DNA of 64,000 bases from the human T2T-CHM13v2.0 reference genome, Homo sapiens. The stretch is taken from the NCBI RefSeq assembly GCF_009914755.1, contig NC_060928.1; one strand, written 5' to 3'. The translations under genes were made by a program, and so were the position numbers. The notes below the pieces were generated by a model. The model did not search any database. It was not told where the DNA came from and saw only the letters and a program-made list of their open reading frames with translations. This document shows positions 8,201-41,452 of this stretch, piece after piece (the first letter of the stretch is position 1; each line of letters begins with the position of its first letter).

Positions 8201-10134
8201 AGTCTCAGGACTTTTCCTTAGTTCAGCTAAAGATGGGATCCTTGTCTGTCCCATGGCCACAAAAATTTAGGCTCACAGATGGTTTGAATGTCGAGGACTC
8301 TGAAAGGCCAGAGTCCCCCTGCTAGAGTGCTTCCTGCCCAAAGCTTGAATCCCAGCTTCCACACAGAAAGAGGAGGGGCCTGGCTCTTCCCCACTGCAAA
8401 TGGCACAAACTTGCTGAGGTTCCACCCCAGTGAACATTCTTCTCAGTGTTCAAGCTCTTTGGAGATTCCCTGGGGACCACCTCCTACCTGGCTGTCTCTT
8501 TCCCCCTTGTAAAGAAGTACATCTGAATGCTATTTGAAAGAGCATAAGGAAGATCAATCTTTACTGCTTCCTGCTGACAAGGGGTGCTGTTTTTGGGAAA
8601 TGGTGGTCAGAGCTCACTCACAGGCCTATCTAAGAGTTCCCCCAGCAGAAAGGGCCATTGTCAGAGACTCTGCTTGCATTATTGTTTGGAGTTTGATGCC
8701 CTGAAGGCAAGAACAGACAAACTAGGTTATTAGAAAACATGTATCAAAATGAAACAAGGGGAGGAGTAAGGATAGCTCAAAAATTCTGAGGCCTTTTATC
8801 ACTTTGCACAGGGAGAGAAAGGCCAAAAGCCAGACTGGTAAAATACCCTTTTGCTGGCATGTTGGTCTTCTGGGTTCCCTTCTTCTGGGCCCAATCTTTA
8901 GCCAACCAGCTTAAGGTTTGGAAAGTTAACTCTTTCCAGTTTGGAAGATGCATCTGAGGGGAATGTCCCAGAATACGGAGACATAATTACCTATCCGTGA
9001 AGAGAGAACAGAGGAGAAGAAAGGAAAAAGAAGGCACCTTTTAAAGAAGTCCCAGGGGGTCATGATGCATTCAAAATGGGTACAGACTGAAGGTGAATGG
9101 CTACTCACCTAGGAAGAGGGTGGCAGGTGTCCCTAGTTCTCTTCTCTTTCTAGCAGATACCTGGGGTACATGAGGGAGAAAGAGCATCCTCTTTTCTTCT
9201 TCCGTCCTTGCTTCCCCGAGTGCTGGTAACCTTGGTATGTGCTGAAACAGGTGTCAAAGCAACATGCACCCATGAACCAGTGGGGCCTAGGGGGTGAGAA
9301 CATTCACTCTTACCCACTTACCCACATACACCCTATCTCCCCTGCTTTCAGTAGTCTGGGAGTCCCTAGACCTCATCTATGCCATGGATACTAACAAGGC
9401 TTTTATCCATGAACCAGGGAGCTTGGGCTTCACTTAATTGGCAGGAAACAGCCACACTCACCTGCACTGTGCATTTTGTTGCACAAAGTAGGGGCTTATC
9501 CTGCCTTAGGGACTGACTCTTTTTCAGGTTTGATATCTGCATGTTTTCCTTGGCCTGGCTCTTATAAAACCCCACCCAGGAACTGGGTTTTCTCCTGCCT
9601 GTCTGCGTGTGTGTTATGTGTAATGTCTGCAGAAAGAGCTCTAAATGATTTTGGCCTGAAAAAGACAAACACTTGCATCTAATATTTTTTAAAGAGAAGT
9701 TAAAAACTGTGGTACCGTTCAGTTCACGTGACTTTAATCTTTGAGAAATAGGAAGAGGCTTAAAGATTAATGGTAAAAAGCAGATGTCATTACAGTGTAA
9801 ATAGGTGGACTAAATAACGCAATGGTGTCTTTGTCCATCTCAGGGCCATGAAAATTTAGGCTGGCAGATGGTTCAACAGGTGAGTAAAGCAGGGTTTTAT
9901 TGGGTGAAAAGGAAAAAAAAAGGGGAAACAGGGATCTTCCACAAGGCTGGAGACCCCTGCCAGAGTGCTTCCCACTAGCAGCTTGAATCCCAGGTTCCAC
10001 ATGGGATATTTGCCGGGCTCCTCCCTGTTGCAAACAGTGCAAAATTCCTGAGGTTCCACCCCAGTGCACATTCCTCCCAGTGCACAGGCTTGTTGGAGAT
10101 TCTCTGGGGACCTCCTTCTCCTCTGACTAGCTCA
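8201..10134 (-). mobile_element. Internally deleted ERV1 (MER4-group, MER61-like) provirus with two LTRs
   Basis: Direct repeats at ~8201-8498 and ~9822-10134 (share cctgaggttccaccccagtg- and ttggagattc-like blocks). Polypurine tract as ttcccccttg at ~8500. 4-bp TSD gtgg (8197-8200 / 10135-10138). Confidence 0.8.
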
Positions 10135-13871: not shown

Positions 13872-16001
13872 ATAATAGGTGTCTCCAGACAAAAAGAGCC
13901 ATGTATGAATACACACACATTAGTACACACCTATGAGGGAGGATTTTATTGTAGGAATTTGCTTAGGCTGAGAAATATTATGATATACACTTACACACTT
14001 TATATTTAGGAAAGCTGATGCTGTAATTCAATCTGAGACTGAAGGCCTTAGAACTAGGAGAAATAGTTGTGTAATTATTTGTCTGAGGATGATGGCCTTA
14101 GAACTTAAGGAGCTACAAGTGGGGTTTACTAGTGCAAACCCTAGTGTCCAATGGCCCAATATCCAGAAGCCTCAAATAAAGAAGGCAGAATAATATTAAT
14201 GTCCCAGCCAAAGAAAAGAGAAATATTTGTCTTCTTCTGCCTTTTGCTCTATTTGGGTTCTTAACGGATTGGATGATACCTGCCCACAATCATGAGAGAT
14301 ATCTTTAGTCAGTCTACTGATTTAAATACTAATCTCTTTTTAAAGTATTGTAACGTTTGTCACAGAATCATAAAAATATCTATCCTAAAATTCATACAAA
14401 CCCCAAAATAGCCAAATAAATCATAAACTAAAAGAAGAAAGCCAGAGGCATCAAATTACCTAATTTCAAAGGATATTAAAAGCCTGTAGTAACTAAAACA
14501 GCATGGTAGTAGTACAAAAACAGAGACATAGAGCAATGGAACAGAATAGAGAACCAAATAATAAAGCCACACACCTACTGCCACCTGATTTTTAATGAAG
14601 TCAGGAATAACAAGCAATGAAGAAAGAACCCTCTATTCAATAAATGATGCTGTGATAATTGTATAGTCATATGCAGAAGACTGAAATTTGACCTCTTCCT
14701 TTCACCACATACAGATATCAACTCAAGGTGTATTAAATACTTAAATGTAAAATCTAAGACTATATAAATATGAGAAGAAAACCTCAGAAATACCATCCTG
14801 GATACAAGCCCTGGCCAAAGTTTTATGACAATTACCCCAAAAGGAAATTGTAACAAAAAAAAAATTGACAAGTGAGACCTAATTAAACTAAAGAACTTGT
14901 GCACAGAAAAACATTCAATAACATAAACAGATAACCTACAGAATAGGAGAAAACATTTCAATACTATGCATCCAACAAAGGACTAATGTTTAGAATCTAG
15001 AAGGAACTTAAACAAATTAACAAGCAAAAAAGAAAAATCCCACTAAAGAGTGGCCAAAAGAGAACAGACACTTCTCAAGAATAAGTACACATGGCCAACA
15101 AGCATATGAAAAAATACTCAACATTACTAATCATCAGAGAAATGAAAATCATAAAAACCACTATAAGATACCATCCCCCCTAGTCAGAATGAATATCATT
15201 AAAAAGCACAAAATGACAGGTGTTGGCAAGATTAGGGAGAAAAGAGGATGCTCATACACTGTTCGTGGGAATGTAAATTAGTTCAGCCACTGTAGAAAGC
15301 AGTTTGAAGATTTTTCAAATAACCTAAAATAGAATTACCATTTTACCCATCAATCGCATTACTGGGTATATACCCAAAGGACTGTAAGTTGTTCTACCAG
15401 AAAGACACATGCACACCTACGTTTATCAACAGCATCACAGTACTATTCATAATAGCAAAAACATGGAATCAATCTATATGCCCAACAATGGTGGCCTGGA
15501 TAAAGAAAATATGGTACACATATAAATGATGGAATACTATGCAGCAATGAAAAAAAAACAAAATCATGTCTCTTGAGCAACACAGATGCAGCTGGAATTC
15601 ATTACCCTAGGCAAATTACCACCAGAAAGGAAAACCAAATACCACATATTCTCAGTTGTAAGTGGGAACTAAACATTGAGTACCTATGGACAAAGAGAAA
15701 GGAATAATAGGCAATGGGAAATATGTGAAAGTGTAGAATGAGAGATCTATGAGAATCAAAAAACTACCTACCAGGTACTGTATTAACTATCTTGGTGATG
15801 AAATAATTTTTACACAAAAACCCTGTGACATGAAATTTACTCATGAAGAAGTTGACACTTTAACCTTCTGAACCTAAAGTAAAATTTAGAGGAGGAAAAA
15901 TGAAATGCTCTCACAGATAAATCCAGAAATAATTTTTTTTTTTTTTAGCTATTTGGTAATCTCTTAAACCAGTCAAGTTGACACATAAAATTAACCATCA
16001 T
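13872..16001 (-). mobile_element. ERVL LTR (MLT2-like) split by an L1
   Basis: Left part ~13872-14340 (ggtgtctccagac...aatctcttt). Right part ~15902-16001, ending gtcaagttgacacataaaattaaccatca. Confidence 0.75.
14345..15900 (+). mobile_element. 5'-truncated L1 (L1PB/L1MA-like 3' end)
   Basis: ORF2 C-terminal motifs (aaacagcatggtagtagtacaaaaacagagacatagagcaatggaacagaatagag) followed by 3' UTR. Confidence 0.85.
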
Positions 16002-17617: not shown

Positions 17618-18052
17618 TGTTGCTGTCAGTTGCTATGGGATTGGGTGAAGGGGGATGAATGGAGAAATGAAGACAAAGACAAAAAGATCTGTTTTAAAAG
17701 AAGGTGTCAGGGGCTCCTTGCTTCTAGTGAACAAAGGCTTTGAGCTTCTACAGCCCTTCATATTTATTAGGTGAAAAGAGCAGGGAGGAAGAGGTAATGG
17801 TTGGTCAGCTGCTTGATTTATCACAGGTACACATAATTTCTTTCTTTGTACAACAGGCTTCAGATATTCCTACAGATAATCACAAGGAACACTGTGCTTG
17901 GGGTGTGATTGCCCTCAGCACTCCTTCTGGGGGCAGACATAGTCATCAGTTTTCCAACATCCTGCTTTCATGAGAACAGTTTTCTGTTTGCTCATATAGC
18001 CTCCAGTGGTATGCTGAGTTGGTCACGACCCTCATTCTTTTGGCCTGTAACA
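17618..18052 (-). repeat. 3' LTR (LTR3A-like)
   Basis: TG..CA termini. Minus strand begins tgttacaggccaaaagaatgagggtcgtga, preceded by the polypurine tract (plus strand tctccctctttttg). Confidence 0.9.
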
Positions 18053-20810
18053 TCTCCCTCTTTTTGTTTTTTCATTAATTGAATAAAGGTAATTGCAGGT
18101 TCTGCAGCTCTCAATTGCCATTTGGTGGTCCACCTGATTTTGAAGACTATGAACAAAAAACAGAAACATAATAACATTAATCCAATAGTAACAACAAAGA
18201 CATTGAGTTGCTGTTTGCGGTAGGTCCAAGGGTTAAGGCTCTCTAAACCTTGTTGGAATTCTGCCCAAGCTTTTAAACAGGGCTGAAACACTTGAGTTTG
18301 CTTATCGAAGTTAAGGATTTTACTTTGTAAATCATTAATATCAAAAGTAACATTGGATGTGAAAGCTCCCTGTAAATGGGCCTTTACAAGGCTCCAGGAA
18401 TATTCACTTTGGTTATATTCCAAATTGGTCACACAAATATGAGTATGATTAAAATGACAATGCAATTGCTGATGCAACTGCAAACTTTGTTATTTGTTCT
18501 CCTAGCCAAAGAACAGTAGCCTTTAACATTGCCACCTCTGTTCATATTTCAGCGTTAATTTTATTTTGAAGCATCCATGCCTGGCCAGCTGTGCGTGTCC
18601 AATTTTCTACATATTGAGCTGTTTGAATAGAGCGATGCATTGCTACTGAGGACATCACAACAGAGGTTATCAATGTAACTAAGGAGACTATAGCAACAAT
18701 TATCATGCCTAAGGCTCTACGAGCACGATGAGTAAGCTGAGTAAAAAAGAGTTTTATAAGATGTAAAATGGGGGTGGCCACCCAAGGTTCAGACAGATTT
18801 ACAGGAATCCATAATCTGGGAATGCAACCTAGAATTATTAGGGTGGATATATCATGTGTCTGTATTGTGCTTTGATTAAGGCAATGATAAAGTTGACAGG
18901 AATCACAAGTCGACTGGGCATCATCCACCTGGAGTTGGTCCTTTTTTGCTACTAAGAAAACGTAAGAATTAAAGCACAAATTATAAATTGAGTGGTAATA
19001 TTTTCTACCATGATCATATTAAAACTGCATTTAGCACTGTTATTATTATTGAATAATGTCCCAACTCAAATGCTGCCATTAATAAATGGGAGTGCTGTTT
19101 TGCATATCGAATTCTGGATTGGACCTCTCTTTCCTTGAGAATGCCATTGAGGCAAAGGTGGGCTAAGGCCTGCGCCATGCCAAGTAATTTGCGCAGCAGA
19201 TTCGGATTGAATCCCAATGTGACGTGGCAAAGAGATGTTAAAGTTTTGCCACCAGTGGCAGTGAAGTTCATGCCATGAGGTCTGATGCTCATCTCTCCCA
19301 ACCAAGTGACCATGGGGACCCCAGTCAATAATGTCTCCCATCAGCATGGACTGTTGTCTAGCTAGGGAGCCAAGACACTGGGTCCAAGGAGGGGAGTTAG
19401 AATTATCAAAGGGAACCCATTCTGTATAATTAATACAATTTGGGCGATGAGACCAGGAGTGATTAGTAACTGCACTAGAAATATTAATAGAGCTGAGGCC
19501 CAATAGGCACAAATATTTTCTTTTTTTTACTATTATACTTTACGTTCTAGGGTACATTTGCACAACGTGCAGGTTTGTTACATATGTATACATGTGCCAT
19601 GTTGGTGAGCTGCACCCATTAACTCATCATTTACATTAGGTATATCTCCTAATGCTTTCCTTCCCCCCTCCCCCCACCCCATGACAGGCCCCAGTGTGTG
19701 ATGTTCCCCTTCCTGTGTCCAAGTGTTCTCATTGTTCAATTCCCACCTATGAGTGAGAACATGAGGTGTCTGGTTTTTTGTCCTTGCGACAGTTTGCTGA
19801 GAATGATGGTTTCCAGCCTCATCCATGTCCTTATAAAAGACATGAACTCATCCCTTTTTATGGCTGCATAGTATTCCATGGTGTATATGTGCCACATTTT
19901 CTTAATCCAGTCTATCATTGATGGACATTTGGGGTGGTTCCAAGTCTTTGCTATCGTGAATAGTGTTGCAATAAACATACGTGTGCATGTGAGGAAAGAC
20001 AATTTTGAAACCAAAGTTTGATTTTGGAAAGCCTTTTTAGTATATTTAAAGCATTTGATATTGTAAAACAGAATTCCAAATTACTATAAGTCATTTATTT
20101 TGCCAAAATGATGACTCAGAAACGTTAAAGAAGCAAAAACCTTTTATAACTCTTTTGAATTTAGTTAATATATTCACATAGATAACCTATTCTGCAAGAT
20201 TAATTTTCAGAATTTTTCTACCACTTGTTTGAAACTTCAGCTTTTTCCTAATTTGAAAAGCCAGGTGTCAGGAAAGACAATTTTTTAAATTATACTTTAA
20301 ATTCTAGGGTACATGTGCACAATGTGCAGGTTTGTTACATTTGTATACATGGTTGCGTGGCACATATATTTTCTATGGTAACTCAATCATGCCTGGGATT
20401 AAATTGCAAGGAAACTGCAGTTGAGTGATGTATCCTGGGTGATGCATAAAGGAAGTCCCTCCAATGGAGCAGTATAATTGATACCATTGTCCTGAGAGTC
20501 TAATTGCTCTGTGTCAGGGGGAGTTAAGGGTCCTGGTGCCCATACTCCTTGATCATGATATAACTCAGGAGGATTGCCAGTCCAGAGTACCGGTCATACT
20601 ACTGGGAGGTTAAGAACATATGCCCAATATGTTTTTGCCTCTGCACAGGGAAAACATACTGCACAGGATATTACAGCTGACATGGCCATAAACTTGGAGT
20701 TAGGGGTTTTTGCCTCACCCTGACGCTCTAGCAGTTTCTCAGCTTTTTGTGTGGTTTTCTTGATCTGTCCCCATGTCTTTGCATTCAGATTCAACTGGCT
20801 CATGGCTCAT
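17992..20810 (-). pseudogene. env: HML-6 env remnant (SP-SU-TM), disrupted
   Basis: TWGQIKK signal region (20594..20803). Furin site and fusion peptide RARR/ALGMIIVAIVSL (18542..18979). TM CHFNHTHICVT (17992..18483). Frameshifts and an L1 composite insertion are present. Confidence 0.88.
19521..20358 (-). mobile_element. Composite L1PA insertion: L1 3' end (470 bp) + ~290 bp foreign segment + second L1 3' tip (~70 bp)
   Basis: Outer TSD ggcacaaatattttc (19506-19520) / ggcacatatattttc (20359-20373). Inner direct repeat aggaaagacaatttt (19992-20006, 20270-20284). Confidence 0.9.
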
Positions 20811-20829
20811 ATTGGAGGAGCTGGGCCCA

Positions 20830-23333
20830 TGGTTGGGATCCATGGGTCCCTCCAGTCTCCCATTCCATGGTCACATACATGGTGGGGGAACCCACACAGT
20901 TTGTCCATGTCCTGTAAAAACATAAGCATACCCTCATCCCCACGTTAGTAAATCTACTGGGCCTTTCCATTGCCCTTCTTCTGGGGACTTCTATAATACC
21001 TTTAGGTAAACTTTTTTCCCTTTAACATTTGCCACTGTCATTCTGCCGGAGTCTTATTATCTGTAACAGGAGCTAAAAAATTTAAAGTAAATAAGGCTAA
21101 ATGTAATTTTATTTGAGGTGGTAGCTGGTCTCCTACTCCCCCTTTTTGTTTTTTTCAACATACACTGTATGTTAGTTACATCAATTACATTAATAAATGT
21201 AATGCATGTTTGATGTGCCAGCTCTATAATGCCTTGTCCTCAGGGATTGTAAGGAATTCCTGTCTTATGAGTAATTTCCCATAACTATAAAAAATTTTGA
21301 AAAGCATGACTAACATAAGCAGGTCCATTGTCAGATTTTATTGGTTTAGGAACACCCATATGGGCGAATGACAATAAACAATGCCGCTGTACATGGCCAG
21401 CTCTTTCTGTTTGACACGTAGCATGTAACATATGAGAGTAAGTGTCTACAGTCACATGAACACAGCTAAGCTTGCCAAAGGCTGCTATATGTGTAATACC
21501 CATTTGCCAGATTTCATTTGGAGCTAAGCCTCGTGGGTTACATCCTTTTATGGGTATATCACCAGGGACATACTGGCAAGTGGGACAGGCTTGCACAATA
21601 GCTCGAGCCTGGCTACGAGGCAGATGAAACATACAAGTAAGGGTGAGGTGTTTTGATGCAATAATGTATGAAAGGCTTGAGCTTGCTGAAACACAGAGTC
21701 AATCAATTTATCTGCTTTGTCATTGCCTACAGATAGTGGTCCAGGAAGTTGTGCGTGAGAGTGAATATGAGAAATATGTAAAGGAGCAGCATAAGAATGA
21801 ATAACTTGCTGAAGTCTTAGAAACAAGTTAAACAGCTCTGGTTCTAGGGTGCTTTTAATAGTGGCAGTCTCAATGTGACTGGCTACATTTACAACATAGG
21901 CTGAATCACAGACAACGTTAATAGGAGTTGAAGCAGTGAGCTGTAAAACCTCAATAACTGCCATTAATTCTGAGTGTTGAGCTGAAACTCCAGAGGTTTT
22001 TATTGTTTGAGTATGCTTAGGTCCATAAATAGCTGCTCAGCCTTTGGAAGAGCCATCAGTGAAATAAGTCTGGCCACCTGGAATAGGCTTGTGATAAGTA
22101 ATCACAGGGAGGATAAAAGGGTGAACTTTACAAAATTGCAAAACTTGCCTGATGGATAGTGGTTGTCTATTATTACTACAAAATCCACAAGAGCAATTTG
22201 CCAAGCAGTCAACATTTCCCATGCTGCAGCCTGTTGTTGGAAATCCAAGGGAACAATAATTTTGTCTGGGTCATATCCTGTAAACATTTTTGATCTATGC
22301 CTATCCATAGTTATAAGTTGAGTAATTAAAGAAAGATAAACTTGTAAAGATTTTACTGTTTGATTGGATAGAAAAAGCCATTCTATTACCATTACAAACT
22401 TGTCTATAAATGGGCCCAAAAGTCCTATTGGAGAGTAGGGGGTTGGAAGAATAAACAGAAGCAAAGGCTTTTGTGGCTGTAGCCAGGAGGCATGTCTTCA
22501 CTGAAGCATTTGTTCTACAAGCTGTAATTCAGCTTCTGCCTCCTTAGTAAGTTGCCAAGGAGAGTCTAATGAAGAATCTCCTTGGAGGGTCTGATAAAGG
22601 TGTTTGAGTCGATAAGTAGCAATACCTATCATCAGGCGCAGCCAATTAATATCCCCTAACAATTGTTGGAAATCTTTCAGTGTTTGTAATCTGTCCCTAC
22701 GGAGAGTTACTTTCTGAAGTCGAACACTTCTTTCAGTAACAATAGTGCTTAAGTACCGATGTGGGGAGGTTGTTTGCACCTTTTCTGGAGCTATTTTGAG
22801 ATTCCATTTAATCAAAGCCTGTTTTGTTTCTCTGAATAACTGATGTAAAATTTGATCTGTAGGAGTGGCCAAAAGAATATCCTCCATATAATGAACGATG
22901 TAAGCAGTAGGAAACATATTCCGAGGCTCCTTTAATGCCTGTCCTACAAAATGCTGACATAGCACAGGACTGTTAAGCATGCTTTGTGGTAAAACTTTCC
23001 ATTGATAATGAGAACCAGGTTGTCTTTGATGGATAGAAAGCACAGAGAAGGCAAATCGAGGCTTATCCTTCTCGTGGAAGGGTATAGTACAGAAATAATC
23101 TTTAAGATCTATTACTAAGAGAGGCCAGTCCATTAAAATGGCTGCCGCGGATGCCAGACCTTGCTGTAATGCGCCCATTGGTTTAATTTGTGCATTAATG
23201 ACTCTTTTGGAATTGCAAATACTGGTGAATTCCAGGGACTAACTGACTCTTCGATATGTTCTGCATCCAATTGCTCTTTTACTAGCTGATAGAGTTGAGT
23301 TAGTTTCTCCTGTGATAGGGGCCATTGATTCAT
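20830..23333 (-). pseudogene. pol: HML-6 pol remnant (RT, RNase H, integrase)
   Basis: [33 protein letters not shown] and YMED (degenerate YMDD). RNase H YFTDGSS and VVCDSAY. IN CPTC, IWQMGITH and KSDNGPAY. Multiple frameshifts. Confidence 0.92.
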
Positions 23334-23689
23334 AGAGGCATGGGTGGGACAACAGATTCTTTTAAATTTTTAGACTCAGAACATGACTCCTGCTGTCCAG
23401 CAGAATAAGGAGATAATGGCAGACAGACAGTAAGAAACAAACTCCAAGTGGAGAAATCAGAAGGGTCAACTTTAAGACCTTTTTGATGAGCTCGTTTTAA
23501 TCCTTCTCCTATTCTGTTCCAAATTTCCACATCGAGAGTGCCCATCTGTGGAAACCATGGGTTATGTACAGTGACCTTCTTCAGCATCTTAGTTAATGTT
23601 TGAGAACTAACCTGAGCACCAGATTGTTTAAGTAAAACTTTAAGCAACTGCACATAATGTTGCTCCTGAATAGATAGATTCTGCCCCAT
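23330..23689 (-). pseudogene. gag: HML-6 gag N-terminus (matrix), 119-aa open frame truncated by a deletion
   Basis: MGQNLSIQEQHYVQLLKVLLKQSG...HNPWFPQMGTLDVEIW is a betaretroviral MA with the Gly2 myristoylation site. It abuts the start of RT directly. Confidence 0.88.
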
Positions 23690-23834
23690 GTTACCCTGAT
23701 TCAGAAAACTTCCCATTCCCAGTACCTCTTTAGGGCACTAACCTTATATTAGCTGCCAGTAGACTTGTCCCAAGGTTTCTTGCTCATCTGGTCAGTTTCA
23801 CTTTCTCTGCTCCAGCAGACCTTCTTTGCTCATG

Positions 23835-23852
23835 TCCCTGTCCTGGGCACCA
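23835..23852 (-). promoter_or_regulatory. Primer binding site, tRNA-Lys-like
   Basis: Minus strand tggtgcccaggacagggac, 2 nt after the 5' LTR, versus the Lys3 PBS TGGCGCCCGAACAGGGAC. Confidence 0.8.
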
Positions 23853-23854
23853 CT

Positions 23855-24279
23855 TGTCACTGCCAGTTGCTACAGGATTGAATGAAGGGGGATGAATGGA
23901 GAAATGAAGACAGAGACAGAAAGATCTGTTTTAAAAGAAGGTGACAGGGGGCTCCTTGTTTCTAGTGAACAAGGGATCTAAGCTTCTACAGCCCTTCGTA
24001 TTTATAAGGTAGAAATAGGAGGGAGGGAGAGGTAATGGTTGGTCAGCTGCTTGATTTATCACAGGTACACTTAATTGCTTTCTTTGTACAACAGGCTTCA
24101 GATACTTCTATAGGTAATCACAAGGAACACTGTGCTTGGGGTGTGACTGCCCTCAGCACTCTTTCTGGGGGCAGACACAGTCATCAGTTTTCCAAATCCT
24201 GCTTTCATGAGAACAGTTTTCTGTTTGCTCCAGTGGTATACTGAGTTGGTCAGGACCCTCATTCTTTCAGCCTGTAACA
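23855..24279 (-). repeat. 5' LTR (LTR3A-like)
   Basis: Direct repeat of 17618-18052 with a ~10-bp deletion near 24230. Confidence 0.9.
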
Positions 24280-24677
24280 GAGGGTATTAGAGTCTGGATT
24301 GAACCGTAGCAAACAGCAGTAGCCCTATAGAAGGAGGGCTTGACTGTTAAAAGAAAAACAAACAAATAGAAAGCTACAGCAACAACATGAACAAAAAAAA
24401 AAAAAACGCCCATAAAAAACCCGTTCAAAGGTCAGCAACCTCAACAAAGTTGAGAAAGAATCAATGCAAAAACGTTGAAAATTTAAAAAGCCAGAGTGCC
24501 TCTTCTTGAAATGATTGAAACAACTCTCCAGCAAGGGCACCTAACTTAGCCAAGTCTGAGATGGCTGAATTTACAAAAGTCAGCTTCAGAAGGTTGGTAA
24601 TAACAAACTACACTGAGCTAAAGGAGCATGTTATAAAACAAGACAAAGAAGCTGAGAATCATAATAAAACAATACAG

Positions 24678-24965
<288 letters not shown>

Positions 24966-27900
24966 TTACAGGAGCTCAAACCCAGAATTGCTCATTTAAA
25001 GAGGAACATAAATGACCCGATGAAGCTGAGAAACACAACATGAGAACTTCACGACACAATAACAAGTATTGATAGCCAAATAAACCAAGCAGAGGAACGA
25101 ATCTCAGAGTGTGCAGACTATTTTTCTGAAATAAGACAGGCAGACAAAAATAGAGGAGAAAAGAATGAAAAGGAATCAACAAAACCTCTGAGAACTATGG
25201 CTCTATATAAAAATACCTATGATTGATTGGGGTACCTGAAAGAGATAGGGATAGTGGAACCAAGTTTGAAAGCATACTTTGAGATATAATCCAGGAGAAT
25301 GTCCCCAACTTAGCAATACAGGGCAACATTTGAATTCAGAAAATCCAGAGAACCCCAGCAGGATGCTCCATGAGAAAATCAACCTCAAGACACATAATCA
25401 TCAGATTCTCCAAGGTCACAATGAAAGAAAAGTGTTAAGAGCAGCCAGAGAGAAAGGCCAGGTCACCTACAAAGGAAAGCCCATCAGACTAACAACCTGT
25501 CATTGGAAACCCTACAAACCACAAGATATTTGGGACCAATATTCAACATTCTTAAAGAAGAGAATTTGTAACCCAGAATTTCATAACCAGACACACTAAG
25601 CTGTATAAGTGAAAGGGAAATCATATTCCTTTCAGACAAGCAAATGCTGAGGAAATTCATCACCACCAAGCTTGCCTTTCAAGAACTCCTGAGGGAACTA
25701 CTAACTATTGAAAGGAAATACCGTTACCAGTGACTACAAAAAACACACCAAGGTACACAGACTAGTAACACTATAAAACAACCATGTAAACAAGTCTGCA
25801 AAATAGCCATCATGATGACAGGATGAAATTGACACAATATTAACCATAAATGTAAATGGACTTAACGCCTCAATTAAAAACACAGAATGGCAAGCTGGAT
25901 AAAGAGTCAAGCTCCATCAGTATGTTGTCTTCAAGAGACCTATTTCACATGAAAAGACACACATAGGCTCAAAATAAAGGGATGGAGGAAAATTTACCAA
26001 GCAGAGGAAAACAGAAAAAAAGCAGTAGTTACAATTTTTGTTCCTGACAAAACAGATTTTAAACCAACAAATATTAAAAAAAAGACATTACATGATGATG
26101 AGTTTTCAATTCAACAAAAAAGCTAATTATTCTAAATATATGTGTACCCAATAAAGAAGCATCCAGATTCATAAAGCCAGTTCTTAGAGACCTCCAAAAT
26201 GACTTAGACTCCCACACAATAATAGTGGAAGATTTTAACACTCCACTGACAATATTAGACAGATCATTGAGACAGAAAATTAACAAAGATTTTCAGGACC
26301 TGAACTCAGCTCTGGATCAAGTAGACCTAATAGATATCTAGAGAACTCTCCAACTGAAAACAACAGAATATACATTCTTCTCATGGCTGCACGGCACTTA
26401 CTCTAAAATTGATCACATTATTGGAAATAAAACACTCCTCATCAAATGCAAAAGAACTGAAATCATAACAAACAGTCTCCCAGACCACAATGCAAATAAA
26501 TTATAACTCAACATTAAGAAACTCAATCAAAATCACAAGACTATGTGGAACTTGTACAACATGCTCCTGAATGACTCCTGGGTAAATAATAAAATTACGG
26601 CAGAAATTAGGAAGTTCTCTGAAACTAATGAGAACAATGAGACAACATACCAGAATCTCTCGGATGCAGCTTAAGCAGTGGTAAGAGGAAAAGTTAGAGC
26701 ACTAAATGCCCCATATCAAAAAGCTACAAATATCTCAAGTCAATGACCTAACATCACAAGTAAAAGAACTAGAGGACCAAGAGGAAAACTTCCCAAAGCT
26801 AGCAGAAGACAAGAAATAACCAAGATCAGAGCAGAACTGAATGAGATAGAGACACACAAAATCCTTCAAAAAACTCAAGGGATTCAGGAGCTGTATTTTT
26901 TTTTTTTTTGAATAAAAGTTAACAAAATAGACCGCATCTGCACTAATAAAGAAGAAAACTTAAAAGAATTAAATAGACACAGTCAGAAATGATAAGGGGG
27001 ATATCACCAATGACCCCACAAATATACAAACAACCATCAGAGAATACTTTAAAAATCTTTAGCACATAAACTAGAAAATCTAGAAGAAATGGATACATTC
27101 CTGGATGCACACACCCTCCCAAGTCTGAACCAGGGAAACATTAAATCCCTGAATAAACCAATAATAAGTTCAAAAATTGAGGCAGTAATAAATAGCCTAC
27201 CACCACCACCAACAACAAAAATCCCAGGATCAGATAGACTTACAGCTGAATTCTAACAGAGATACTATTTCTTCTGAAACTATTCCAAATGATCGTAAAG
27301 GAGGGACTCCAACATCAACAACAACAACAACGACAAAACTTCAGGCCAATATCCCTGATGAATATCAAAGCAAAAATCCTCTAAAATACTGACAAACCAA
27401 ATCCAGCAACACATCAATAAGTTTATCTATCACAATCAAGATGACTTCATCCTCAGAATACAAGTTTGGTTCAATGTACAAAAATCAATAAATGTTATTC
27501 ATCACATAAACAGATCTAAAGACAAAAAACACATGATTATCTCAATAGATGCAGAAAAGGCCTTTCATAAAATTCAGCATTTCTTCACATTAAAAACTCT
27601 AAATTAACTAGGCATTAAAGGAACATACCTCAAAATAATAAGAGCCATTTATGATAAATACACAACCAATATCATACTGAATGGGCAAAAGCTGGAAGCA
27701 TTTCCCTTGAAAAACAGCCCAAAACCACAGTGCCATCTCTCACCACTCCTATTCAACATTTTATTGAAAGTTTTGGTCAGGTCAATCAGTTGTGAGAAAT
27801 AAATAAAAGTTATTCAATCAGAAGAGTGGAAGTAAAATTATCTTTGTTTGCAGATAACATGATTCTTTATCTAGAAATCCCATTGTTTCAGTCCAAAAGC

Positions 27901-39600: not shown

Positions 39601-41452
39601 AAAATTCATATTATTAAAATGTCTGTACTCCTGACAGTGATTAATAGATTTACTGCAATCTCTATTAAATTCCTATGGTATTTCTTATAGAATTGAAAAA
39701 ACTTAAAATTTATATGAAAACACAAAAGACTGTTAATATGCAAACATGATTTTTTTAAAAATGCACAGAATGATCTTATATATTGCTTTTAAGAAAGCAA
39801 CTATAAGACTTTATAGAAAAAATACTTTCTTTTATAGGTTAGAACTGAATCTACTCAGTTTTATTCAAGATTAAATCTGTCCACTTCTTCTTCACCTCAG
39901 AATGTTAACGTTTTTATAGGATTATTCAAAAGTACCTTAATTATGCCCTGTTCTGCATGCACAATCCAGGAGACAGTAAGTTCAGAGAATTATAGTCCAA
40001 CTTGTTTGGACTGACTTTTGTTCCAATTTTGGGGATTGGCTTTTGGTCGTTCATTTCTTCTACGGTCAAAATGTAAGTGGACTCATTTTGATCCATGTCA
40101 TCTCTCTCGAAAGAAATATGCTGTTTCCAAATTTTAAACTGAACTTAGCTTGGAAAAGAAGGCCTAGTAACAGAGATAGGAGTTGTCATTATATCTCTAG
40201 CTATCATTATATAATGAAAGCCAGACTTTGTCAACTCACTCTTTTACCAGAATTTTAAACTCCCTAATAGATGATTGAAGTGATAACATGATTTCCTTTA
40301 ATGCTGCTCACAGACTTCCCACTTTATTTAGAAAATTCATTATTATAGAGCCTGGGTGATGGATAAAGTAAGGCATTCACTTGTTTTTCTTATGTTATAG
40401 ACAGAAGCTGGGTTTCGGTCCATAATATCAAAATGTCATCTGTTATTTATATTGACATAACTTTCTGAAAACAGTGCAAGTCAAGATTTGCAGTGTTTAA
40501 TGAAACCTGAATTTTGAAATTTTACCTCCTTTTGTGGGAAATAATTTTAAGAATCAGATATAGAGTTTAAAATTTAAAGTTCTGTCGGATCTAGGAAAGA
40601 TTATTTTGCTATATTTGTGTTTCTCTCTGTGAAATTTTTGATCACCAATTCCAATAAAAACCACAATAGCATTTTCTCCAGAGATTTCAATGAATTCTTT
40701 GATTTCCTGTAAAGAAATAATTTGTACATCAATAAGAGAAATGCATCATATAAATTTCAAAAATAGATGCATATAATTTTAATAGCTTTACTGAAGGAAG
40801 AACAATTGATATACAAAAAACCTGCAAGTATTTTTACTTATATATTTATATTATTTATATATATATAAATTGATGGGTTTTGACATATACATGCACCTAT
40901 GATGCTATCATTACAACAATGAAGGTAATAAACATATCCATCACCTACAAAAGCTCTCTTTGTCACTCTTTGTTTTTGATAGTAATAATGCTTAACATGA
41001 GATTGACCCTCTTAACACATTATTAAGTGTACAATACCGTGTTGTTAACTATAGGCATTATATTGTAGAGCAAATTTCTATGCTTATTCATAAACATAAG
41101 TGAAACTTTATACCCACTGAACAACAGCTCCCCATTTCTCTCTCTCCCAAACCCCTGGAAATCACTATTTTATTTCTGCTTCAATTAGTTTGCCTATTTT
41201 ACTTAACTAATATAAGTGGAATCATAAAATATTTGTCCTTTTTTTATTATTATACTTTAAGTTCTAGGGTACATGTGCACAACGTGCAGGTTTGTTACAT
41301 ATGTATACATGTGCCATGTTGGTGTGCTGCACTCATTAACTCATCTTTTACATTAGGTATATCTCCTAATGCTATCCCTCCCCCTTCCCCCAACCCCACG
41401 ACAGACCCCGGTGTGTGATGTTCCCCTTCCTGTGTCCATGTGTTCCCATTGT

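What the first reader, a model, noticed from the sequence alone, without database searches (positions are those of the whole stretch)
19506..20373. Circularly permuted L1+flank insertion with two nested TSD pairs inside HML-6 env
Seen: within one 15-bp outer TSD lie L1 3' end (19521-19991), aggaaagacaatttt, ~260 bp of non-L1 sequence, aggaaagacaatttt again, and a second copy of the L1 3' tip (20285-20351). The inner 15-mer abuts both the L1 truncation point and the L1 poly-A end, as a donor-site TSD would. However, the flanks lie between the L1 copies instead of outside them, giving about 1.1 turns of a ~760-bp unit. Inference: this could be reverse transcription around a circular template, retrotransposition of a transcript from a tandemly duplicated donor, or a template switch. 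The middle segment looks like MER4-group ERV internal sequence, with a probable junction near 20254.
Basis: partly seen in the sequence, partly recalled or inferred. Interest (0 to 1): 0.72.

Follow-up and report, generated by a model that had tools for sequence, protein, structure and literature searches.

The report
Permuted L1-plus-flank retrocopy in HERV-K env
A single old LINE-1-driven insertion copied a lost donor site (a short L1 fragment sitting inside another endogenous retrovirus) for about 1.1 turns, so the donor's flanks ended up between two L1 copies; it is a rare, clean fossil of a reverse transcriptase jumping back or running round its template.

Summary
An 837-bp block (19522-20358) sits between a 16-bp target-site duplication in the env region of a HERV-K-like provirus. 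In 8 of 8 related proviruses the two flanks are contiguous.

The "non-L1" middle is not unique DNA. It comes from the internal region of a roughly 5-kb, non-coding LTR element family ("X"). X copies carry the 15-mer once. Relative to X the middle is permuted: 20251-20284 lies downstream of, and overlaps, the part matched by 19988-20250.

The 15-mer starts at a TTTT/G nick site. Two other X copies carry an Alu at exactly this site with the same 15-bp duplication.

No donor junction survives in T2T-CHM13. The permutation junction (20250/20251) lies in a short imperfect microhomology and has no GT-AG signals.

I favour an ORF2p template jump (0.4). The rivals are a tandemly duplicated donor (0.3) and a circular RNA (0.15). 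Primate orthologs and the repeat family names could not be tested. It is a new variant of a known kind, of moderate interest.

The parts
19506..19521 (.). Outer target-site duplication, copy next to the L1 A-tail (3' copy in L1 sense)
   Evidence: 15 of 16 identical to 20359-20374. It is present once at the matching place in 8 of 8 related proviruses.
19522..19528 (-). A-tail of the insertion: 7 A on the minus strand, 8 if position 19521 is counted
   Evidence: Read directly. It abuts the outer TSD at a T-rich site, TTTTCT/A on the + strand.
19529..19991 (-). 5'-truncated L1 3' end, 463 nt (copy 1)
   Evidence: Collinear with genomic L1 3' ends (92.4-95.5% over about 470 nt in 26 of 29 closest relatives). 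It differs from the majority state of the 29 at 25 of 468 columns, or 5.3%.
19992..20006 (-). Inner 15-mer, copy 1. It is native ERV-X sequence and acts as the 5' TSD of the donor-site L1.
   Evidence: Exact repeat of 20270-20284. It is contiguous with 20007-20250 in X-family copies.
20007..20250 (-). U244: 244 nt of ERV-X internal sequence lying directly upstream (in X sense) of the 15-mer
   Evidence: 82-86% identical to 9 X copies. It corresponds to about nt 1564-1803 of a 4950-nt X element, sense strand.
20251..20269 (-). D19: 19 nt of ERV-X lying directly downstream (in X sense) of the 15-mer
   Evidence: 20251-20284 matches L002 at 33 of 34 and G000:C4:68392359-68392392 at 34 of 34, in native order with the 15-mer.
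20270..20284 (-). Inner 15-mer, copy 2. It acts as the 3' TSD of the donor-site L1.
   Evidence: In sense it is preceded by the L1 tip plus AA. In X copies the site reads TTTC|AAAATTG in sense, which is TTTT/G on the nicked strand.
20285..20351 (-). Second copy of the L1 3' tip: 65 nt plus 2 A
   Evidence: 63 of 71 identical to 19524-19594. It is 90-99% identical to other genomic L1 tips.
20352..20358 (-). 7 nt between the L1 tip and the outer TSD. Probably further L1 with a small deletion, otherwise filler.
   Evidence: Alignment, judged by eye. Weak.
20359..20374 (.). Outer target-site duplication, 5' copy in L1 sense
17623..24279 (-). Host: HERV-K-like provirus with internal deletions. LTRs are at 17623-18052 and 23860-24279.
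   Evidence: LTR pair 89.6% identical over 431 nt. Pfam Gag_p10, RVT_1, RVT_thumb, RNase_H, rve and a weak HERV-K_REC match lie on the minus strand of 20375-25000. GP41 is at about 18141-18501.

Best explanation
What it is (about 0.85, mostly shown). This is one L1-endonuclease / target-primed reverse transcription event. It inserted 837 nt into the env region of a HERV-K-like provirus and made a 16-bp target-site duplication.

The template was not an L1 mRNA. It was a transcript of a donor locus that no longer exists in this genome. At that locus a 463-nt 5'-truncated L1 had inserted, in sense, into the internal region of a non-coding LTR element (family 'X', about 5 kb). That earlier insertion duplicated the 15 bp AAAATTGTCTTTCCT at a TTTT/G nick site.

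Read on the minus strand, the insert is:
[L1 tip-AA-15mer-D19] [U244-15mer-L1(463)-A7-8]
This is the donor unit read for 1.10 turns.

How the permutation arose (0.4, inferred). Reverse transcription started at the A-run at the end of the donor L1. It copied the L1, the 15-mer and 244 nt of upstream X. ORF2p then jumped to the part of a read-through transcript of the same locus lying 3' of the L1, most simply the 3' overhang of the same RNA molecule. It landed 19 nt beyond the downstream 15-mer, within a short imperfect microhomology (T[C/T]A[G/A]AT). It then copied D19, the 15-mer, the short A-run and about 65-75 nt of L1 a second time before the 5' end was joined to the target.
For: - Single event: a 16-bp TSD, and in 8 of 8 related proviruses the flanks abut, overlapping by 11-16 bp in 7. 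An A-tail abuts the TSD at a T-rich site.
- Donor model:
  - X copies carry the 15-mer once (8 of 9) or in a more diverged form (1 of 9), never twice.
  - U244+15mer and 15mer+D19 are each contiguous native X sequence.
  - The 15-mer starts at TTTC|AAAA in X sense.
  - Two other X copies (L031 on C8, L032 on C11) have an Alu at exactly this site flanked by the same 15-mer.
  - All pieces are in one orientation, and that orientation is X sense, so an X-LTR-driven transcript could run into the L1 and use its poly(A) site.
- Same source for both L1 pieces is compatible with the data. Copy 1 is 5.3% from the majority of its 29 closest relatives, which predicts about 7.5 differences between two 71-nt copies. 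8 are seen.
- Jump:
  - The junction at 20250/20251 lies where X copies read ..TTTTCAGAT.. on the D side and ..GTTAGAT../..GTTAAAT.. on the U side.
  - No GT follows D19 in the 9 X copies.
  - Purified human ORF2p makes template-jumping concatemers, 'copy of template1 + copy of template2' (PMC10830420, passages read).
Against: - No donor was found, so the donor's structure is inferred only from the copy. The top-scored hits for both donor junctions were plain L1 matches. A 27-nt pattern across the 15mer/L1 junction, allowing <=3 mismatches, hit only this locus in 3.1 Gb.
- The two L1 tips share no derived base (0 columns), so there is no positive proof that they come from one L1.
- Priming at an internal, short A-run of a read-through RNA is disfavoured by the reported need for a 3' poly(A) tract (recalled, and cited in PMC4897178).
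- An intermolecular version needs two transcripts of one rare locus in one RNP.
- The microhomology is imperfect, and it was read from relatives, not from the donor.
- A microhomology junction fits a DNA-level tandem duplication equally well.
Confidence: 0.4

Rival explanations
1. Tandemly duplicated donor. At the donor locus the roughly 758-bp unit (U244-15mer-L1-A-15mer-D19) had been duplicated head to tail at the DNA level, by a microhomology-mediated tandem duplication or by a mis-aligned strand transfer during replication of the X element. One ordinary polyadenylated transcript ran through both units and ended at the second L1's poly(A) site. L1 proteins retrotransposed it in trans, and it was 5'-truncated 65-75 nt into the first unit's L1.
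For: - It needs only standard steps at the retrotransposition stage: a true 3' poly(A), one template and plain 5' truncation.
- A junction in a short microhomology is typical of tandem duplications.
- L1 poly(A) signals are leaky (recalled), so read-through of the first unit is plausible.
- All structural facts fit this model as well as they fit the template jump.
Against: - It requires a rare structural variant at the very locus that was then retrocopied.
- No such tandem array was found in T2T-CHM13. No second X-derived match to the middle segment exceeds 88% identity, and there are no junction matches.
Confidence: 0.3
2. Circular RNA template. A roughly 758-nt RNA circle holding the L1 fragment and its X flanks was formed by joining D+19 to U-244. 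The join was made by RNA ligation or non-canonical back-splicing. The nicked target primed on the circle's internal A-run, and ORF2p ran 1.10 turns round it.
For: - The product is exactly what rolling-circle copying gives: start at the A-run and pass it once.
- Human L1 RT performs rolling-circle reverse transcription on a roughly 1-kb circular RNA in vitro (PMC11331410, passages read).
- CircRNA-derived pseudogenes with non-collinear junctions are described in mouse and human (PMC4897178, whole text read).
- RNA ligation before L1 retrotransposition is proposed for U6/L1 chimeras (bioRxiv 10.1101/2025.02.02.635956, passages read).
Against: - In the 9 X copies aligned, D19 is followed by GA/AG-type bases, not GT. 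The D19 end looks like an acceptor (TTTTCAG) rather than a donor.
- The circle's A-run would have been short: 2-6 A in the copied version.
- The circRNA pseudogenes of PMC4897178 mostly lack A-tails, and the paper says nothing of target-site duplications. Here there is an A-tail and a TSD.
Confidence: 0.15
3. No donor-site L1 at all. One cDNA was made by three template switches between an L1 mRNA and a transcript of an intact X element. The order was L1 3' end, then X at the 15-mer, then X 34 nt further downstream, then the poly(A) end of an L1 mRNA. On this view the repeated 15-mer is just the overlap of two X segments.
For: - It would explain why no donor junction exists in the genome.
- The second L1 tip is joined through only 2 A plus the 15-mer's AAAA, which could act as microhomology to a poly(A) tail.
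- The two tips share no derived base.
Against: - It needs three switches.
- The overlap of the two X pieces is bounded on one side exactly by a TTTT/G nick site. On the other side it is bounded by the position where the second nick fell in the Alu insertions at the same site in L031 and L032. That is expected for a real TSD and is a coincidence otherwise.
- The L1/15-mer junction shows no usable microhomology. A switch at the shared GACAC would give two extra bases that are not there.
Confidence: 0.05
4. Stepwise build-up in place: two or more independent insertions into the provirus, or a later local duplication.
For: None beyond the presence of two L1 pieces.
Against: - One TSD pair encloses everything, and there is only one terminal A-tail.
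- The related proviruses show one clean empty site (8 of 8).
- D19 occurs nowhere else in the block, so a local duplication cannot have made it.
- The 15-mer is not host sequence.
Confidence: 0.02

Closest known systems
L1-mediated chimeric retrocopies made by template switching or RNA ligation (U6/L1 type; catalogued in bioRxiv 10.1101/2025.02.02.635956)
   Same: - One TPRT event with one TSD pair.
- An L1 3' end sits at the 3' side.
- Foreign sequence lies 5' of it in the same orientation.
- ORF2p jumping is shown in vitro.
   Different: - Here the 'foreign' RNA is the same donor transcript read again, so the product is a permutation and not a fusion of two RNA species.
- It carries a nested donor TSD.
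- The main text of that preprint has 0 occurrences of 'circular' or 'non-colinear'.
L1 3' and 5' transduction
   Same: - The left piece (L1 tip-A-TSD-downstream flank) looks like the start of a 3' transduction.
- The right piece (upstream flank-TSD-L1) looks like a 5' transduction driven by an outside promoter.
- Offspring that carry the parent's TSD are normal for transductions (recalled).
   Different: - The two pieces are in the wrong order.
- The 3' flank ends after 19 nt without a poly(A) of its own and runs straight into the upstream flank.
- The donor L1 is a 463-nt fragment that cannot drive its own transcription.
CircRNA-derived pseudogenes (Dong et al. 2016, PMC4897178)
   Same: - A non-collinear junction sits inside a retrocopy.
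- More than one turn was copied.
- The authors themselves note that RT passing between close 5' and 3' ends of a linear RNA could give the same picture.
   Different: - Those junctions are exon-exon back-splice junctions. Here there are no splice signals.
- Those copies mostly lack A-tails, and their mechanism is called mysterious. Here there is an A-tail, a TSD and a T-rich nick site.
Twin priming (5'-inverted L1 insertions)
   Same: A rearranged L1 insertion within one TSD pair.
   Different: Twin priming inverts the 5' part. Here every piece is in the same orientation.

Membership tests
L1 endonuclease / TPRT insertion | Target-site duplication of about 7-20 bp enclosing the whole insert | tested here: met
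   16 bp, 15 of 16 identical. In 8 of 8 related proviruses the flanks abut, overlapping by 11-16 bp in 7.
L1 endonuclease / TPRT insertion | A-tail at the 3' end, abutting the TSD | tested here: met
   7-8 A on the minus strand at 19521/2-19528.
L1 endonuclease / TPRT insertion | T-rich nick site of the TTTT/A kind | tested here: inconclusive
   The outer site reads TTTTCT/A on the primer strand. It is T-rich but not the canonical form. The inner donor site reads TTTT/G.
L1 endonuclease / TPRT insertion | Orthologous empty site in species that split off before the insertion | not testable with these tools
   No primate genomes are held. Only paralogous proviruses could be used.
L1 3' transduction | The flank downstream of the L1 poly(A) ends in its own poly(A) next to the TSD | tested here: not met
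   D19 is followed by U244, not by an A-tail.
CircRNA-derived pseudogene (back-splice type) | The non-collinear junction coincides with GT/AG-bounded exon ends | tested here: not met
   In 9 X copies no GT follows D19. This was tested on relatives, because the donor itself is not available.
CircRNA-derived pseudogene (back-splice type) | Non-collinear order of the parent sequence within one retrocopy | tested here: met
   20251-20284 maps downstream of, and overlaps, the family positions matched by 19988-20250.
Twin-priming L1 inversion | 5' segment inverted relative to the 3' segment | tested here: not met
   Both L1 pieces and both X pieces are on the minus strand.
HERV-K (HML-6) provirus as host | Betaretrovirus-like gag-pol-env order, with the insertion lying in env | tested here: met
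   Gag_p10, RVT_1, RVT_thumb, RNase_H, rve, IN_DBD_C and a weak HERV-K_REC match lie 5' of the insertion on the minus strand, and GP41 lies 3' of it. The LTR pair is shown.
HERV-K (HML-6) provirus as host | Assignment to the HML-6 group by similarity to a reference | not testable with these tools
   No Dfam or Repbase reference is on hand. The LTR length of about 430 bp fits my recollection of LTR3 only.
ERV internal sequence ('MER4-group') for the middle segment | Part of an element with LTRs (TG..CA), a primer-binding site and a polypurine tract | tested here: met
   Roughly 330-bp LTR pairs in 3 of 4 long copies (c1, c5, c18). In copy c1 there is a PBS-like 18-mer 4 nt after the 5' LTR and a purine run before the 3' LTR. 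There are no Pfam domains.
ERV internal sequence ('MER4-group') for the middle segment | Family name | not testable with these tools
   No repeat library is available.

The most novel reading that the evidence does not exclude
The template was a covalently closed RNA circle of about 758 nt, made without canonical splicing (for example by RNA ligation of a processed fragment of an ERV/L1 chimeric transcript). L1 ORF2p primed on its internal A-run at a nicked target and rolled 1.1 turns round it. That would make this a germline, TSD-flanked fossil showing that the L1 machinery can retrotranspose circular RNAs, and it would give circRNA-derived pseudogenes a mechanism.
Probability: 0.15. Interest if true: 0.75.

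Novelty: new variant of a known kind. Interest (0 to 1): 0.45.

Why it matters
Retrocopies that are non-collinear with their parent are rare, and their origin is called 'mysterious' in the one paper devoted to them (PMC4897178).

This locus is unusually legible:
- The nested TSD fixes the donor's structure.
- The outer TSD, A-tail and empty sites fix the event as a single L1-driven insertion.
- The junction can be placed to within a few bases.

It therefore shows that L1 machinery in the germline of a primate ancestor produced a copy of more than one turn of a template. The signature [L1 tip-A-TSD-downstream flank | upstream flank-TSD-L1-A] can be searched for genome-wide. Such a search would ask how often ORF2p jumps back onto, or runs round, its template.

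For the locus itself the event has no evident consequence. It lies in a dead provirus in the UGT2B cluster.

Tried and rejected
- Naming the middle segment by protein domains. Six-frame read-through translations of two X copies gave 0 Pfam families. An apparent L1 ORF2 stretch at the start of L004 turned out to be the flank of that one truncated copy and not part of the family.
- Looking for the donor.
  - A search with the middle segment gave no non-self match above 88% (40 of 621 candidates scored).
  - Searches across both donor junctions were swamped by plain L1 hits, and none spanned a junction (40 of 2133 and 40 of 785 candidates scored).
  - A 27-nt junction pattern hit only this locus.
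  - The A-run + 15-mer + D pattern gave 4 non-self hits: 2 native X copies and 2 Alu-bearing X copies.
- Different sources for the two L1 tips. The second tip matches some genomic L1s at 96-99%, which suggested another subfamily. In an unbiased set of the 29 closest relatives of copy 1's body, those variants are rare: AAATTC in 1 of 29 and CATTTGT in 1 of 29. The high matches were therefore selected from a very large family, and the test cannot tell the sources apart.
- Canonical back-splicing was rejected on the family alignment.
- Twin priming, plain 3' transduction and stepwise insertion were rejected on structure.
- Whether the two Alu-bearing X copies are independent hits stayed open. The Alus are 77.7% identical and the X flanks 76.3%.
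Full report
**1. The observation**

- A 16-nt direct repeat lies at 19506-19521 and 20359-20374 (15 of 16 identical).
- A T-run at 19521-19528 is followed by the reverse complement of an L1 3' end, up to 19991.
- The 15-mer AGGAAAGACAATTTT occurs at 19992 and 20270.
- A second copy of the last roughly 65-70 nt of L1 lies at 20281-20351 (63 of 71 identical to 19524-19594).

The 15-mer occurs exactly twice in the 64-kb window. The only other match, with 2 mismatches, is at 40593.

The L1 piece is collinear with genomic L1 3' ends. It is 92.4-95.5% identical over about 470 nt in 26 of its 29 closest relatives, and the other 3 align over 410-441 nt.

**2. The host and the outer duplication**

Pfam scans of read-through translations place several betaretrovirus-type domains on the minus strand of 20375-25000: Gag_p10, RVT_1, RVT_thumb, RNase_H, Integrase_Zn, rve, IN_DBD_C and a weak HERV-K_REC match. 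GP41 lies on the minus strand at about 18141-18501.

A 431-nt LTR pair (17623-18052 and 23860-24279, 89.6% identical) bounds the provirus. The block therefore lies in the env region of a HERV-K-like provirus, in the same orientation as the provirus. Assignment to HML-6 could not be tested by name.

I searched the genome with the left flank (31 matches). I then compared 8 of the returned related proviruses with both flanks. In 8 of 8 the left flank (to 19505-19520) and the right flank (from 20359 or 20362) abut. In 7 they overlap by 11-16 bp, so the outer 16-mer is present once, and in L041 they lie 4 nt apart. The block 19522-20358 is therefore one insertion with a true target-site duplication. 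Its A-tail abuts the duplication at TTTTCT/A.

**3. The middle segment is a repeat**

A search of the whole assembly with 19992-20284 gave 61 matches from 621 candidates, of which 40 were scored. Apart from the locus itself, identities were 73-88% for long matches. The middle is therefore not unique flank DNA.

The nine best loci are homologous to each other over their whole 3.2 kb. Four copies fetched at 16 kb each show homology over roughly 4-5 kb, and three of them (c1, c5, c18) show terminal direct repeats of about 330 bp.

In copy c1 (G000:C1:170570141-170575090) the repeats begin TG and end CA. A PBS-like 18-mer follows the 5' LTR after 4 nt, and a purine run precedes the 3' LTR. No Pfam domain was found in two copies.

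I call this non-coding LTR-element family 'X'. I could not name it because no repeat library is on hand. The sense strand of X corresponds to the window's minus strand, which is the same orientation as the L1 pieces.

**4. The middle is permuted relative to X**

Window 19988-20250 aligns to one continuous stretch of each of the 9 copies. Window 20251-20284 aligns to the stretch that overlaps the end of that match by 15-19 nt and continues beyond it. For example, in L002 19988-20251 matches 1761-1501 while 20251-20284 matches 1776-1743.

The alignment shows the native order in X sense:
...GAGTTAGAT/AGGAAAAGC...[U]...CAGTTTC | AAAATTGTCTTTCCT | GACACCTGGCTTTTCAGATAGTCC...

The window, read on the minus strand, is:
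outer TSD - L1 tip - AA - 15mer - D19 | U244 - 15mer - L1(463) - A7-8 - outer TSD

Of 9 ordinary X copies, 8 have the 15-mer once (<=2 mismatches), 1 has only a more diverged version, and none has it twice.

**5. The 15-mer as a donor-site duplication**

In X sense the 15-mer is preceded by TTTC, so the opposite strand reads TTTT/G at its border. This is close to the usual L1 endonuclease site (knowledge of the family; the sequence is).

I searched the genome for an A-run joined to the 15-mer and D. There were 4 non-self hits. Two are native X copies. The other two (L031 on C8, L032 on C11) are X copies with an Alu inserted at exactly this position and flanked by the same 15-mer on both sides.

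Whether these are two independent hits or descendants of one Alu-bearing X copy is open. The Alus are 77.7% identical and the X flanks 76.3%. Either way, this exact 15 bp has served as a TPRT target-site duplication at least once elsewhere.

The simplest donor is therefore an X copy carrying a 463-nt L1 in sense orientation between two copies of the 15-mer. The window holds that unit (758 nt) for 837/758 = 1.10 turns.

**6. The donor is not in the assembly**

- No X-derived match to the middle exceeds 88%. A donor should be about 90% identical, given the 5.3% divergence of the L1 piece from its relatives' majority.
- Searches across both donor junctions returned only plain L1 matches among the scored hits.
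- A 27-nt pattern over the 15mer/L1 junction, allowing <=3 mismatches, hit this locus alone in 3.1 Gb.

The searches score only the best candidates, so the absence is likely but not proven.

**7. Are the two L1 pieces one L1?**

They differ at 8 of 71 positions. Copy 1 differs from the majority of its 29 closest relatives at 25 of 468 columns (5.3%). Two copies of one source would then be expected to differ at about 7.5 of 71 positions by now, which fits the 8 seen.

No derived base is shared (0 columns), so identity by descent is allowed but not shown. The 96-99% matches of the second tip to other L1s come from picking the best among a very large family. In the unbiased set its variants are rare.

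**8. The permutation junction**

The junction lies at 20250/20251. In the X copies the D side reads ...TTTTCAGAT... The U side reads ...GTTAGAT..., or in L005 ...GTTAAATTAGG..., which is identical to the window over 15 nt.

The crossover therefore lies in a short imperfect microhomology. No GT follows D19 in any of the 9 copies, and the D19 end resembles a splice acceptor rather than a donor. Canonical back-splicing is not supported. This was read from relatives, not from the donor.

**9. Mechanism**

Shown:
- One TPRT-type insertion.
- A template derived from an L1-in-X locus.
- Non-collinear order.
- A junction in microhomology.

Inferred: how the second pass arose.

I favour a jump of ORF2p from U-244 to the part of a read-through transcript lying 3' of the L1 (0.4). 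Purified ORF2p makes concatemers by template jumping (PMC10830420, passages).

A tandemly duplicated donor (0.3) needs only ordinary retrotransposition, but it also needs a rare variant at the donor.

A circular RNA (0.15) is enzymatically possible. L1 RT does rolling-circle synthesis on a roughly 1-kb circle in vitro (PMC11331410, passages). It would link this case to circRNA-derived pseudogenes (PMC4897178, whole text). However, it lacks splice signals and would need priming on a very short A-run.

A three-switch model without any donor L1 (0.05) and stepwise assembly in place (0.02) fit poorly, for the reasons given under rival explanations.

**10. Comparison and novelty**

The closest described kinds are these:
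- L1 chimeric retrocopies (bioRxiv 10.1101/2025.02.02.635956; abstract, outline and passages read; supplements closed).
- 3'/5' transductions.
- CircRNA-derived pseudogenes.

My literature searches found no description of an L1-plus-flank retrocopy permuted in this way, nor of this locus. One search found 12 papers. One search found 10. One search found 510 papers at 3 of 4 terms, of which I saw the top 10 listings. One search found 5 papers (3 listed). These searches cover only the held open-access library.

I rate it a new variant of a known kind. The machinery and all the single steps are known. The product is unusual and unusually well documented by its nested duplications.

**11. Limits**

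- There is no repeat library, so no family names.
- There are no primate genomes, so no orthologous empty site and no dating by phylogeny.
- The donor is absent.
- Ages in years rest on recalled substitution rates and are not given as results.

Noticed in passing
L031 2929-3263 (G000:C8:~91806928-91807262) and L032 1772-2094 (G000:C11:~40248271-40248593): Two other copies of the X LTR-element family carry an Alu at exactly the same internal site, flanked by the same 15-bp duplication as the inner 15-mer here. This is either a recurrent L1-endonuclease hot spot or a sub-lineage of X that spread with an Alu inside.
   Followed up: partly
window 8206-10070: A fragmentary, rearranged copy of the same X family lies about 10 kb from the insertion (73-82% identical to copy c1, with one piece inverted). 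It lacks the region that was copied into 19988-20284, so it gives no evidence of being the donor.
   Followed up: partly
window 17623-24279: The host HERV-K-like provirus is short: about 5.8 kb without the insertion. Gag_p10 lies almost next to RT, so it has internal deletions. Its LTRs are 89.6% identical, similar to the divergence of the inserted L1, so the insertion came not long after the provirus.
   Followed up: partly
window 20052-20373: NCBI's repeat masking, quoted in the hub's note, covers 19505-20051 only. The rest of the block (ERV-X fragment, second L1 tip) is unmasked although it is all repeat-derived.
   Followed up: no
window 15000-15800: The + strand translations show the C-terminal end of an L1 ORF2 (another, older L1 3' part). 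It matches 19713-19991 in inverted orientation at 71%. It is unrelated to the finding.
   Followed up: no
G000:C4:68392010-68392392: An X copy 3.8 Mb away on the same chromosome matches D19+15mer at 34 of 34, but the rest of the segment at only 81-85% and in native order. It is not the donor.
   Followed up: partly
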